NCBI GenBank assembly: GCA_905178155.1
Contig: CAJINV010000002.1
Location: forward strand, 7,222,743 to 7,286,742
Length of the DNA stretch: 64,000 nucleotides
Reading direction: 5' to 3'
DNA from: Amoebophrya sp. A120
Lineage: Eukaryota > Protista > Dinoflagellata
Every line of letters begins with the position of its first letter. Within the stretch, counting starts at the first letter, position 1. Below the pieces are notes generated by a model that ran no database searches, was not told the DNA's origin, and saw only the letters and a program-made list of their open reading frames with translations. Shown piece by piece: positions 20-49,297 of this stretch. Made by a program: the position numbers and the translations under genes.

Positions 20-3000
20 TTGGAGAAGTACTTGACTGGTGGGTTGAAAAAGGGATCGCAGGTTTTGGTATGTAGAAAGAAAAAGCCGCCGAAGGTGGAG
101 GGCGGGAACTACCTTGGATTTTCGCCTCACTTGAAGAAGTATTTCGAAGCGAATGTGAAGAGACCCATTGGGTCCGAGCTGTGGGAAAAGTTCGCACTGG
201 AGTCCGGCGTCATTTCTGAAAGTCGTCCCGAAGGAGATGCAGCAGCATCGAGAGCAGTGGCCGCCAAAACAGATCTTCCGGAGAAGAAAAAAGAACCTAT
301 GGATGAAAGATCAATAAAAAAGGAGGAGGACACGCCGCCCAGAGCTTCTGCTGCGAAAAAAACTTCCGAGGACGCGAGTCAGAAGAAGCAAGACGGCGCT
401 GCTAGTACGACGGAAAATCAACAAGCCGCCACTTGTGCCGCAATAGTCACCGCGAGACGACAGGGTCGACAAACTGGCGTCGCTCTCAGCAAAACTCCGG
501 ACACGAGTGAGCAAGACCGCCACCTCTTTCTGCAACAGCAAATGGCGTTACGAAAGGCGGCGAAAGCCAAACGCTTATCCTCCCGTCTGATCGATTCGGA
601 ATCCGCGGAAGCTTTTGAGCGGAGGCGGAAGCGACAGCGGAGGTTGCAGCGGATGTTTTTGGAACAACACGAAGTTCAGAATAGCGAATCTCTCGGGACC
701 AAATTCCTCGCTGGGTTGAGTTCTCTCTTCGGAGTAGGAGAGACTGAGCACCAGCAACAGCCTACATTCAAGACATTAGAGCAAGCGAAGGCACTTGCCA
801 AATCCAAAGACAAAGCAGAACGGCACAAACACCACACCCATCTGCAGTTCGGGCAGAACCAAGAATCCAGGGACCCCCTGGTGTTGGACGACAAGGGCTT
901 CATCCTGGAACCTCCCGCCGGAAACCCGGAGCCGGTGCGCGTGTTGCCGCATTTGCTTTCCGAGGAGATGGCGTATTTGAAAATCGTGCTCGAGTGGATT
1001 GAATTGATCAAACAAACCACGATAAAACCCAGTAGCACTTTCAGCTTCAACGTCGGAGGATCTTCATCCGCGACGGCTTCATCCCTCAGCGACTACACGA
1101 TCCCAAGACCCACCGCAGCGACCATGCTGGCGAATTTTGGCAGCTCCCTTCTGAACACCATCACGGGGCGCGAGGATTTGTCGCAGCACGAGGGTGTCAG
1201 TGCGAAATTCCTCGAGTTGGAGAAGATGAGCGACGTCGCGCTTGAAAAAAGATTGCAGCGAAATGTGGAGGAGAATGCAGATTTGGTTGGGGACACAGGA
1301 AGAGGTCAAAATGCAGAAGATAATCGGTTCGATGGTGTCACAACTTCTTCATCCACGTTCTCCACAAACTTTGCACTTTTGCAGAAGAAGTTTTTCCCTG
1401 AGTACGTGGAGTACACTAAGCGCATCGCGATGCAGAAGTACTTGCGGCTGGCGAAGATCCGCACCCAGTATTTGTCCACCCTCTCCTACACCTGTCGCAA
1501 CACGATTTCCCACGAATTTGCGCTCGATGTTGAAGTTCATTTTCCGGAAACTGCGGAACTGGTGGAGATACAAACGCGGAAAAGGGTTTTGTCCGCATTG
1601 AAACTGATGGAAATCGAGTCCCACAACAGCCACTTGGCAACAGAATCTGCGCACCAGGCTGCAGTTGCACACGAAGAAGTTGCAGTCGACAATGAAGATG
1701 AAAATGGCGGAGAAGCAGGTGGAAAAGCCAAGCCCACCATCACGGCGTTTGCGATCGGCCTGCAATTGACCCGGATCAACGAAAAGGGAGAGCTAATCGA
1801 CCCGGTGCAGCGCCGGCGTAGATTCGTGAAGAAGCGGTGGAAGAAAGCGTTTAAGAAGGTGGTCCTTCTACTGAAAGTCACCACCCAGTTCCGTTCCCTG
1901 ATCCCAGTGTATGGTAAGCGCTCAACTGCTTTCCGGGTGAAGCAGCTGAGTCAGTTTCTGATGAAGAGCAGAGGTTTCATCGAGGATTTCTCCATGGGAG
2001 CAGGGACATCAACAACAATGCAGAACAACTATCAAAGGCATCAACTTCGCGACGAGCGGCAGATGGCGAAAGCGAGGCTGTTCGCCATTCGGGATTTTTT
2101 AGAACCATCCGTTGCCGTCGACGCGGAAAGACCACAAGAGGCAGCGCTGTTGTTTCCTGGCGACAGCAACAAACCGCAAACCGTCCGAGAAACAGCAGCA
2201 GAAACGAGGCGGAAAATCGCGTTTAAGCAGGGCCGGGGGCTGATTGAGCTGCGGCAGCTGGTACCACTGGTACCCTGGGACGATTCTATGGTCGCAGGGA
2301 AAACCAAACAAGAACCGAAGAAATTGTCCGGCCGACCGGTGAAGAAGCGAGATAGCAATGCTGCAAAGGAACAGCTTTCCGCTTTCACTTACGCGACTTT
2401 GTGGGAAGAAAGCACATCGGTAACTACAAGCGCAGGATCTACTTCTCGAGCTGGCGCGACGTCTCAGCAGCAGTTTAAAAACCACATAGCCTTGCTTCAA
2501 CCTGGGCAGTTAGCGTACAAAGAGTTGGCCTACATCTTGCACGACCCGAGTTTGAATTCCTTAATTCTCCCGGTGAAAGCGCAAGTTGCGAAAACGGAGC
2601 TGCAAACTGCTTTGTTGGGTCCTGCTGGTGCTGCTCAAAATGGAGAAGACAGTCCCGATCTTATCGACAATCTGTCAAATAACAACTACACCAATCACCC
2701 CTACCGGAGACGCTTTCAGCAGAACATGCAGAAAAACCAGAATTTGCAGGCCCTCCAGCAGGCGGCGAAGTATCCAAGAAAAAAACTGTGTAACTGTAAC
2801 TTCGCAGCAAGAACAGCATCACAAATTCGTTTTGCATTACAGGCAAAACCTGTCATGTGCAGCTAGTACATGGAAACACGTATGAAAGTTGCCTATCACG
2901 TACATCCAGCATAACAAGCGTATACGGTTTTGCATTTCCTGCATCACAGACTTACACTTACACAGTTTTTTTCTTGCATACGAAGCTGGAGGTTTTGAAT

Positions 3001-4024
3001 ATCAAGGAGGAGAACAAATTTCTAGAAAAGGTCCTCCACATATGGGAGTGTCAGGTTTGAAATCGACAAAGTTGAAATAATTTGTCATGCATAAAATGGA
3101 TGCCAGTTAGACCTGCAGTCTGTAGTCGGTGCATGACAAATTTTCCCGGTCCTGGAAGCCAGTCTGTCATGCGGTTTAGGGCAAAAGAGCTGCCTTCTGT
3201 CATGCTAGTCAGCAGCCCAACTTTTGACCCTTACCAGGACTATCATCTGCCTCCCTTGCGTCCTCTGCAATAGAGTCACTTTTTGTATCGCATTTTATGC
3301 ATTACAAGTTATTTCAACTTTGTCGATTTCAACTCTGACACATCCATACCACAGAGACCGAACGGAACTGCTGCTCGGCTGCACGAACGCGGATTTCGGC
3401 GGGGGAGCTGCATCCGGTTTGTCAGCACCTGTTCCGAGGATGATTTTACACGGAAATAATCCCAACAACGCGGAAATCTGGGGTAGCAACAACCCCTGGG
3501 TTTTGCAGCCGGTTTCCGCGGGAAGAAAGTTGTCTCGGTCGCCGAGCCCAATCGACTTTCAAACCCGGAACCGGCGCGGCAGCCGGAGTCCGTCGAACCA
3601 CTTCGGGAGCAGAAGTCGGAGTCCTCCCGGCTTGGTCAGGTCGCCCAGAATAAATCACGATCGGTTGATCGGTAGTCGGAGTCGGTCGCCGAATTTGATG
3701 CTGTCCTCTCGGCGTGGTCAAGTCCTGGAGCACGTCCCAGACGATGTGTTGATTCCGCAGTTGAGTCGCGGGAATTCGCCATCCCCAGTGATCGGGCGGA
3801 GCAGGAGCGTCAGTCGCGGCGGCAGAAGTGCGTCGGCAGGTAAGCGAGTTCGGTTTAACCCGAGTGACGCTGCAGTCGAGCCGGACAAACTGCGGATTAC
3901 GGTAAAGCAACCGACGGGGGAGAGATTCAACGAAAGAGCTTTTTTGAGGCACTTGCGGAAAAGCGCTCGAGGAGAAGCGGGGCCGGATGGAGAGGTTTTG
4001 TTTCACAATGTAAGAAGGATCTAG
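20..4024 (+). CDS. Large hypothetical protein, probably 5'-truncated by the window; exons ~20-2770, 2986-3040, 3354-4024
   Basis: The 948-aa ORF continues in frame once the elements at 2771 and 3041 (each plus one TSD) are removed: QAAK|LEVLNIKEENKFLEKVLH|RDRTELLLG. C-terminus is RS/SP-rich. No family recognised. Confidence 0.7.
2771..2980. mobile_element. TIR introner, family A (210 bp)
   Basis: TIRs tatccaagaaaaaaactgtgtaactgtaa / ttacacttacacagtttttttcttgcata; TSD cgaag at 2766-2770 and 2981-2985. Confidence 0.92.
3041..3348. mobile_element. TIR introner, family B (308 bp)
   Basis: Long TIR tatgggagtgtcaggtttgaaatcgacaaagttgaaataa / ttatttcaactttgtcgatttcaactctgacacatccata; TSD ccaca at 3036-3040 and 3349-3353. 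Confidence 0.95.
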
Positions 4025-48700: not shown

Positions 48701-49297
48701 TCTTCTGACCAAGCACGAGGAGCTCCTGAAGCTGCAGGAAGACTGTGGCTGCTTCATCAACCACGAAGAATGGGAGAAGTATCACGAGAAAAAAGTGTCA
48801 CAGTTACACGTTTGTTGGAGTTTCCGCATCACAGATTTTCCCTGTGTGGTAGAAAAACTTGTAATGCGAAGATCATAAGGGAAAACAGGAAGGAAACGAG
48901 GCTCCCAAGCATTTCCTGCATGAGAGAGGTTGTCTGTGTTGCCGGTCTTGCAACGCAATGTGTAACTGTAACACTTTTTTCTTGCGATAAGAAGCAGTGC
49001 CAGCCCGTGGGTTTCGCGAACGAGGCCTTCAACTGGGCCAGTGGGAAGATCAACTTCGCCCAGCTGTGCGCCAGCTCGGAGCTACAGGAGGGAGTGCTGA
49101 TTCGCTGCCTGAAGTCCTTGGAAGAGCTGCTGCGCAAGATCAAGACGATCGCGTGCGACCTGAAGATGGTCAGCCTAGAGCTACTGGCGCTCGACGCCAT
49201 ACAGATGGTGAAGAGGGACGTGGTTTTCCTCCCCTCGTTGTACTACGAAAACATTGACCTCACTGCACGTGGCGAAAGTGGTCGAGATGAGGAGTAG
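42768..49297 (+). CDS. SKI2: SKI2-like DExH RNA helicase; exons 42768-44529, 44644-48779, 48995-49297
   Basis: [66 protein letters not shown], and a C-terminal DSHCT-like segment WASG...EGVLIRC...KRDVVF. Confidence 0.9.
44530..44638. mobile_element. Minimal TIR introner (109 bp)
   Basis: Perfect 30-bp TIR tatccaggaaaaaacacccatccccatcca / tggatggggatgggtgttttttcctggata; TSD gaggc. Confidence 0.96.
48780..48989. mobile_element. TIR introner, family A-like (210 bp)
   Basis: tatcacgagaaaaaagtgtcacagttacac / tgtaactgtaacacttttttcttgcgata; TSD agaag; removal gives [10 protein letters not shown]. Confidence 0.93.

What the first reader, a model, noticed from the sequence alone, without database searches (positions are those of the whole stretch)
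2771..48994. Exon-resident TAT...ATA / 5-bp-TSD elements acting as non-GT-AG introns
Seen: about 19 elements of 109-308 bp, all within coding exons, with TIRs and TAT...ATA ends. Fourteen have an exact 5-bp TSD. Removing element plus one TSD rebuilds conserved motifs (PhyH GDVVLFSE, CDC14 LEYAMK and SWVIP, UBE2W ETFRIYF). Sliding the junction across the TSD never gives GT-AG; at best it gives GT..AA, TA..AG, GG..AG or AT..AC. Known: inverted-repeat introners with non-canonical borders were reported in Amoebophrya (Farhat et al. 2021), with the excision mechanism unresolved to my knowledge. Inference: a hairpin-guided precise excision system makes these insertions harmless even in conserved genes. 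TAT termini with a 5-bp TSD fit no DNA-transposon superfamily I recognise.
Basis: partly seen in the sequence, partly recalled or inferred. Interest (0 to 1): 0.92.

Follow-up and report, generated by a model that had tools for sequence, protein, structure and literature searches.

The report
Known hairpin transposon introns of Amoebophrya
These are short jumping DNA elements, already published for the marine algal parasite Amoebophrya strain A120, that sit inside protein-coding genes and are likely cut out of the RNA exactly, probably one base before and four bases after the hairpin they fold into, so the genes likely keep working.

Summary
The window holds 17 TAT...ATA inverted-repeat elements, 14 with an exact 5-bp target duplication, all interrupting reading frames. 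Removing element plus 5 nt from CDC14b gives the NCBI Amoebophrya A120 protein CAD7934658.1 at 504/504 residues, and tandem paralogues show the empty sites. Farhat 2021 describes exactly these A120 introners (TAT + 7 nt + AAA, 5-bp repeats, RNA-seq support). PMC12130899 lists an A120 family with '5-bp TSD, TA/TA termini' and integrase-like ORFs. I obtained no RNA reads. New details: (1) at one old element whose duplication has decayed, only one junction reproduces the published protein, 1 nt upstream and 4 nt downstream of the element, and four other decayed sites agree; (2) the published variety of splice dinucleotides is reproduced by aligner sliding across the duplication (r 0.98-0.99); (3) a second assembly shows 214 exact 5-bp duplications, random orientation, no GT selection and insertions in RPB1; (4) a shared internal motif. 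The catalyst is unknown; an adapted spliceosome is my best guess.

The parts
2771..2980 (.). TAT...ATA element, 210 bp, exact TSD CGAAG, in an unnamed long + strand ORF
3041..3348 (.). element, 308 bp, exact TSD CCACA; 96% identical to 6662-6969 in the opposite orientation
6662..6969 (.). element, 308 bp, exact TSD GCTGC, in a Cys-rich gene with no Pfam hit
7021..7170 (.). element, 150 bp, exact TSD CGTGC; no frame-preserving GT-AG within 24 nt
9117..10829 (+). host gene, PhyH-family dioxygenase, with one canonical GT-AG intron (9590-9801) and two elements
10038..10252 (.). element, 215 bp, exact TSD CGTAG, inside GDVVLFSE
10332..10569 (.). element, 238 bp, exact TSD TGTAC, inside ALYRFAP
11855..12160 (.). 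element, 306 bp, TSD 4/5 (GGACC/CGACC); site empty in L026; host copy looks pseudogenised
12227..12391 (.). element, 165 bp, TSD 3/5 (CACCT/CATGT); site empty in L026; orthologue residue needs at most 1 upstream base removed
12415..12837 (.). right-hand remnant of an old 660-bp element, whole in L026 3396-4055; left part lost with an about 2.1-kb deletion
12914..13127 (.). old element, 214 bp, TSD decayed (AGCAG/CCTTC), shared with L026; the only junction reproducing CAD7934655.1 is intron 12913-13131 (GT...TT)
15054..16723 (+). host gene CDC14a = published model CAD7934657.1 (504 aa)
15577..15726 (.). element, 150 bp, exact TSD GTACG, inside LEYAMK; site empty in CDC14b
19073..20854 (+). host gene CDC14b = published model CAD7934658.1 (504/504 after removing element + 5 nt)
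19687..19948 (.). element, 262 bp, TAT...ACA, exact TSD TGGGT, inside SWVIP; site empty in CDC14a and CDC14c
23060..25046 (+). host gene CDC14c (464 aa after removal of both elements); no identical record found
24112..24412 (.). element, 301 bp, exact TSD GGGGA; element + 5 is a multiple of 3 and stop-free in the coding frame
24574..24853 (.). element, 280 bp, exact TSD CAGGG, inside EDVGQGDR
34803..35054 (.). element, 252 bp, exact TSD TCCAG, in an unnamed long ORF (1390 to 1837 codons on removal)
40803..41109 (.). element, 307 bp, exact TSD CATTC, between UQ_con profile positions 47 and 49 of an E2 enzyme; no frame-preserving GT-AG within 24 nt
44530..44638 (.). element, 109 bp, exact TSD GAGGC, in a Ski2-like helicase (DEAD, Helicase_C, DSHCT)
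48780..48989 (.). element, 210 bp, exact TSD AGAAG, in the same helicase (ORF 1412 to 2066 codons on removal of both)

Best explanation
These are the published Amoebophrya A120 introner elements: short non-coding inverted-repeat insertions with a 5-bp target duplication, likely moved by an integrase-like transposase encoded elsewhere and likely spliced out of the pre-mRNA together with 5 flanking bases. Shown here: the anatomy, filled and empty sites in paralogues and in a second assembly, and that published proteins equal the gene minus element + 5 nt. Inferred: the two arms pair into a long stem in either orientation, and the cuts are measured from the stem, 1 nt before the 5' arm and 4 nt after the 3' arm. 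The intron would then read N-TAT...ATA-NNNN, blind to the target sequence. The catalyst is most likely an adapted major spliceosome (U1 undetected) that keeps the +2 U and +3 A of a donor but has dropped the need for +1 G and the terminal AG. My odds: published class 0.97; RNA-level removal of element + 5 nt 0.92; fixed 1+4 register 0.6; spliceosomal catalysis 0.55.
For: CDC14b minus element + 5 nt is 504/504 identical to CAD7934658.1, and only 155-nt introns reproduce CAD7934657.1 although a GT-AG pair lies at -1/+1. Gene models there were built from transcript alignments (PMC7789003 section 25). Empty sites carry one copy of the 5-mer. In the second set of loci 214 of 343 candidates have an exact 5-bp repeat, against 29, 7, 4, 0, 1, 1 for 2, 3, 4, 6, 7, 8 bp. 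Length + 5 falls 78/59/75 into the three phases for 212 elements, and the four largest families split 27:34, 16:15, 7:7 and 5:5 by orientation. Two elements sit in RPB1. CDC14a and b differ by 30 synonymous and 2 non-synonymous codons. All 14 exact elements fold with 24-30 of the first 30 bases paired to the far end, z -2.7 to -11.2. Register: one junction only for CAD7934655.1, matched by QHK in the uninterrupted homologue P0129; 12227 needs k<=1, L026 3396 needs k>=1, 11855 needs k<=4, L060 532 gives a stop at k=4. The first T is kept in 212 of 212 oriented elements, the last A in 207. U2, U4, U5, U6 and 83 of 89 spliceosomal proteins are reported present in A120.
Against: No RNA reads were seen; splicing rests on published models and on sequence constraint. 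The exact register rests on one element; the 12227 site is in a probable pseudogene. A direction test on 40 oriented elements with mismatched repeats gave no signal, and at position 5 the left copy was G in 1 of 6 and the right copy in 3 of 6, against a drift towards GT seen in two old elements. A partial A120 model of another CDC14b-like copy (CAD7976592.1) uses a GT-AG pair inside the element and keeps 7 extra residues. The element that fixes the register no longer folds end to end in its best structure (2 of 30 paired, z -1.7), so a long stem cannot be strictly required. No transposase ORF was found. Nothing here tests the catalyst.
Confidence: 0.6

Rival explanations
1. Same elements and same precise removal, but by a non-spliceosomal, structure-guided endonuclease and ligase (Euglena-like or tRNA-splicing-like) that cuts at a fixed stagger around the stem.
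For: No sequence preference at any target position (G at position 5 in 56 of 172, against 50-61 at the other positions); both orientations used equally; U1 undetected; Euglena hairpin introns have fixed spacers and leave as circles (PMC12501133).
Against: The rest of the spliceosome is present and 35% of A120 introns are GT-AG; N-TAT matches donor positions +2 and +3; the 5' T looks more fixed than the 3' A (0 against 5 changes in 212; weak); two old elements have G at +1.
Confidence: 0.25
2. The ordinary spliceosome removes them imprecisely through nearby GT-AG pairs, and the precise junctions are annotation artefacts.
For: 13 of 15 elements have a frame-preserving GT-AG pair within 24 nt; CAD7976592.1 uses one.
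Against: 7021 and 40803 have none; all but one alternative add or delete residues, often in conserved motifs; three published models need exactly element + 5 nt; +5/+5 scored best of nine combinations against PhyH homologues.
Confidence: 0.06
3. The junctions are reverse-transcriptase template switches across hairpins between direct repeats, and the elements stay in the RNA or the genes are dead.
For: Hairpin plus direct repeat is the classic substrate for such artefacts (own knowledge); one host copy in the window does look dead.
Against: Retention would break RPB1, the Ski2-like helicase and the E2 enzyme; no enrichment for multiples of three; purifying selection on CDC14; the junction at 12914 has no direct repeat left.
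Confidence: 0.04
4. The elements are excised from DNA in the growing parasite, like ciliate internal eliminated sequences, leaving one copy of the repeat.
For: Symmetric, orientation-free ends suit a transposase; removal restores the original gene.
Against: Both assemblies retain the elements; an element with a decayed repeat is still removed at an asymmetric 1+4 register; no germline/soma split is known to me in this lineage (recalled).
Confidence: 0.05

Closest known systems
Amoebophrya A120 introner elements (PMC7789003)
   Same: Same strain's gene models; ends TAT + 7 nt + A-run; 5-bp direct repeats (Fig. S19 legend); mean length near 240 nt; repeated families.
   Different: No difference in kind. 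The paper calls the splice sites variable and the border position unknown; here the variety is reproduced by aligner sliding and the evidence points to one register.
A120 introner family 38 (PMC12130899 and its dataset)
   Same: 5-bp TSD and TA/TA termini, TIR DNA element generating introns.
   Different: About 810 bp with ORFs resembling Copia/Gypsy integrase; the window's elements are 109-308 bp with no ORF. I could not compare sequences.
IS3EU/GingerRoot DNA transposons (PMC10045372)
   Same: TA..TA termini.
   Different: Duplications are usually 6 bp; here 5 bp (214 exact 5-bp, 0 exact 6-bp). No transposase to place.
Ginger1 and Ginger2/TDD (PMC2836005)
   Same: Integrase-like TIR elements; TDD-4 and TDD-5 make 5-bp duplications.
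   Different: Termini are TGTNR; most make 4-bp duplications with target preference. Here TAT and no clear target preference.
Euglena nonconventional introns (PMC12501133, PMC11282704)
   Same: MITE-like origin, paired ends, junctions at fixed spacing from the stem, no GT-AG.
   Different: Signature N3-CDG...CH'G-N5-6|R; here N1-TAT...ATA-N4. Circular products are shown in Euglena, untested here.
Fritillaria borealis non-canonical introns (as reviewed in PMC11282704)
   Same: MITE-derived introns with TIR and TSD handled by an adapted spliceosome.
   Different: Fixed AG-AC/AG-AT borders; here the border bases come from a random target.

Membership tests
Amoebophrya A120 introner elements | Host is Amoebophrya A120 | tested here: met
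   Three window genes reproduce A120 proteins CAD7934655.1, CAD7934657.1, CAD7934658.1
Amoebophrya A120 introner elements | Inverted repeat starting TAT, seven loose bases, then at least three A | tested here: met
   Positions 1-3 TAT 0.98-0.99, positions 11-14 A 0.80-0.91 over 242 ends outside the searched family; some window families lack the A-run
Amoebophrya A120 introner elements | 3-5-nt direct repeat at the borders | tested here: met
   14 exact 5-mers in the window; 214 of 343 in the second set
Amoebophrya A120 introner elements | Repeated, dispersed families | tested here: met
   3041 and 6662 are 96% identical; families of up to 61 members
Amoebophrya A120 introner elements | Junction supported by RNA-seq | not tested
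   No reads were obtained; indirect support from transcript-based models
IS3EU/GingerRoot | TA..TA termini | tested here: met
   definition
IS3EU/GingerRoot | 6-bp target duplication | tested here: not met
   0 exact 6-bp against 214 exact 5-bp repeats
IS3EU/GingerRoot | Transposase in the IS3EU/GingerRoot clade | not testable with these tools
   No genome held; no coding element in 403 kb of loci
Ginger1 / Ginger2-TDD | TGTNR termini | tested here: not met
   TAT at 0.98-0.99; definition
Ginger1 / Ginger2-TDD | 4-bp (5-bp in TDD-4/5) duplication | tested here: inconclusive
   5 bp fits TDD only
Canonical U2 introns | GT/GC...AG borders | tested here: not met
   0 of 14 can give GT-AG and 1 of 14 GC-AG within the repeat; the one unambiguous junction is GT...TT
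Canonical U2 introns | Lariat and branch point | not testable with these tools
   needs lariat sequencing
Euglena nonconventional introns | Paired intron ends | tested here: met
   predicted for 14 of 14 exact elements
Euglena nonconventional introns | N3-CDG...CH'G-N5-6|R signature | tested here: not met
   ends read TAT/ATA with 1- and 4-nt spacers; signature

The most novel reading that the evidence does not exclude
Tens of thousands of A120 introns are removed by one sequence-blind ruler rule, cut 1 nt before and 4 nt after a terminal TAT/ATA stem, in either orientation. The published 'variable splice sites' are an alignment artefact, and the machinery is a hairpin-reading splicing system that needs neither U1 nor GT-AG and makes any exon a free landing site for a still unnamed TAT/5-bp integrase-like transposon group.
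Probability: 0.4. Interest if true: 0.75.

Novelty: already known. Interest (0 to 1): 0.36.

Why it matters
The class is published, so the finding itself adds little. What could matter is the narrower rule. If every such intron is cut at 1+4 from its terminal stem, an apparently lawless set of splice sites collapses to one signal, N-TAT...ATA-NNNN. That gives a direct handle on an open question: how introns are spliced where U1 is undetected and GT-AG is ignored. It can be checked with existing RNA-seq at elements whose two repeat copies differ. It would parallel the fixed-spacer rule found in Euglena, in an unrelated lineage.

Tried and rejected
No whole genome is held for the window, so no genome-wide transposase search was possible. 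No RNA reads were laid, so splicing is not shown directly. P0129 found no relative in genome contigs and the TIR pattern found nothing in viral contigs. The search for longer relatives of the 13130-13660 exon found none. Long TIR pairs in the fetched loci were either chance pairings of neighbouring short elements (L058, L060) or non-coding (L067 972 bp, longest ORF 86 aa; L042 631 bp, 85 aa). Rejected as elements: 12504-12837 (chance pairing), 6917-7131 (internal motifs), 59644-60274 (no repeat, no internal motif). The idea that the TGA near 11694 is selenocysteine or a recoded stop was dropped: the second assembly has TGC there, and a second apparent TGA belongs to an element end. The mutation-direction test of the register was inconclusive, and 22 further oriented elements whose registers give different peptides could not be judged for lack of homologues, apart from one stop. 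The sliding simulation does not fix the repeat length: 3-8 bp and TGT ends fit nearly as well, while CAC, GGC and CAG ends with a 5-bp repeat fit poorly. Two look-ups of earlier scan notes returned nothing.
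Full report
Observation. A scan for TAT...ATA stretches with matching ends returned 15 rows: 13 true elements with an exact 5-bp flanking repeat, one chance pairing and one pair of internal motifs. A fourteenth exact element, 19687-19948, ends in ACA. A scan blind to the terminal triplet gave 15 hits, 11 TAT-type, against 1-3 hits and no TAT-type in each of five block shuffles. 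Three further elements have decayed repeats. Total 17, all on + strand reading frames. No register within the repeat gives GT-AG in 14 of 14; one gives GC-AG.

Host. The first exon of CDC14c has its best named hits in Amoebophrya A25 and A120. CDC14b minus element + 5 nt is identical over 504 of 504 residues to CAD7934658.1 of Amoebophrya A120, and the neighbouring models CAD7934657.1 and CAD7934655.1 are reproduced exactly too. Other hosts are a PhyH-family dioxygenase, a ubiquitin-conjugating enzyme and a Ski2-like helicase. No identical record of CDC14c was found.

They are transposon insertions. CDC14a and CDC14b each carry an element that the other lacks, and the empty site holds one copy of the 5-mer. 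This set is enriched for the searched family. L026 is the orthologue of window 10888-13786 at 90-96% identity. In that stretch two elements are present only in the window, three at sites only in L026, and one is shared. Of 343 candidates, 214 have an exact 5-bp repeat; other lengths are rare. The motif TGT[ACG]ATG[CT] is shared across families: 53 of its 68 window hits lie in the 14 exact elements, 5% of the sequence, and 213 of 226 exact elements in the second set carry two or more, mostly 32-47 nt from an end (detection there required one loose copy). I read it as a transposase-binding repeat (inference). No coding copy was found.

They behave as precisely removed introns. Removing element + 5 nt lengthens the ORF in all five further window genes tested and scores best of nine combinations against PhyH homologues. 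In the second set only 4 of 281 elements have no open frame at the junction. For the 212 with a strand call, length + 5 falls 78/59/75 into the three phases, and large families lie in both orientations about equally (the strand caller is a codon model that I did not validate separately). Two elements interrupt conserved RPB1 motifs. CDC14a and b differ by 30 synonymous and 2 non-synonymous codons. Against: 13 of 15 elements have some frame-preserving GT-AG pair nearby, and the partial model CAD7976592.1 uses one, keeping 7 extra residues. That may be minor alternative splicing or a forced alignment. I saw no reads.

Where the cuts fall. With an intact repeat the junction cannot be placed. At 12914-13127 the repeat has decayed, and of all donor and acceptor positions within 40 nt only intron 12913-13131 reproduces CAD7934655.1: one base upstream, four downstream. 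The uninterrupted homologue P0129 has the same QHK, and L026 shares the element and its flanks. Four other sites agree but only bound the register. A statistical test on 40 oriented mismatched repeats gave no signal. PMC7789003 reports variable splice sites and used BLAT. Simulating a TAT...ATA element with a random exonic 5-mer and a BLAT-like sliding rule (rule recalled) reproduces the 16-dinucleotide spectra published for family 1 (n = 1322) at r 0.98-0.99 for the 5' end and 0.96-0.99 for the 3' end; random or edge placement gives r of 0.33 or less. The fit is tolerant of repeat length and of TGT ends. So the published spectra need no variable splicing and no selection for GT, and say nothing on the true register.

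Mechanism. Shown: symmetric ends, a predicted long terminal stem in 14 of 14 young elements, orientation independence, no target preference. Inferred: cuts are measured from the ends, giving N-TAT...ATA-NNNN. I favour an adapted spliceosome because most of it is present in A120, N-TAT keeps donor positions +2 and +3, and the 5' T never varied in 212 elements while the 3' A varied in 5 (weak). A separate endonuclease and ligase remains a serious rival. The old element that fixes the register has largely lost its best-structure stem, so a short terminal signal may suffice.

What is known. PMC7789003 (seen: abstract, passages, sections 10, 11, 12, 16, 25, supplement legends and Table S4 rows; figures not seen) describes 29,850 such elements in A120, starting TAT + 7 nt + AAA, with 3-5-nt repeats and RNA-seq support. 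[quoted passage not shown] PMC10045372 and PMC2836005 (passages) give the IS3EU/GingerRoot and Ginger definitions. PMC12501133 (abstract, discussion), PMC11282704 (section 6, passages) and PMC12005148 (passages) give the comparisons. Searches showed no paper fixing the A120 register or catalyst; subscription journals and unseen figures (Fig. 3, S19-S25) may hold it.

Verdict. Real, already known, with a few testable refinements. Interest 0.36.

Noticed in passing
window 15054-25046: Three tandem CDC14 phosphatase genes; a and b are a recent duplicate of about 4 kb (99.6% protein identity) that each gained a different element after duplication.
   Followed up: yes
window 11491-12837 against L026 589-4055: The window copy of a Cys-rich gene has a premature TGA and an about 2.1-kb deletion that fuses it to an old intron of the next gene, whose 5' exons are lost; the published model of that gene starts at 12878.
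   Followed up: partly
all elements, e.g. window 3083, 3299, 7121, 44563: Quasi-palindromic internal motif TGT[ACG]ATG[CT] shared across unrelated families, 32-47 nt from the ends; both orientations contain a TnAy branch-point-like word. Not found in the text of the papers read.
   Followed up: partly
L067 3001-3262 and 4024-4995: Two elements in RPB1; the 972-bp one has 20/20 matching ends and an unrelated non-coding interior, perhaps captured or nested sequence.
   Followed up: partly
window 24112-24412: Element + 5 nt is 306 bp and stop-free in the CDC14c frame, so retention would add 102 residues rather than truncate.
   Followed up: no
window 26640-28200: A G+C-rich stretch (59.5% over 26001-28000) without an obvious gene, unlike its surroundings.
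   Followed up: no
window 16996, 50121, 59644: Lone TAT-type ends with an A-run outside coding exons, with no partner or repeat found; possibly remnants.
   Followed up: partly
window 50437-52821, 55704-56762, 58451-59303, 61791-64000: Gene-like reading frames with low-complexity, Pro/Ala/Gln-rich products and no elements; several seem to begin with a hydrophobic leader.
   Followed up: no
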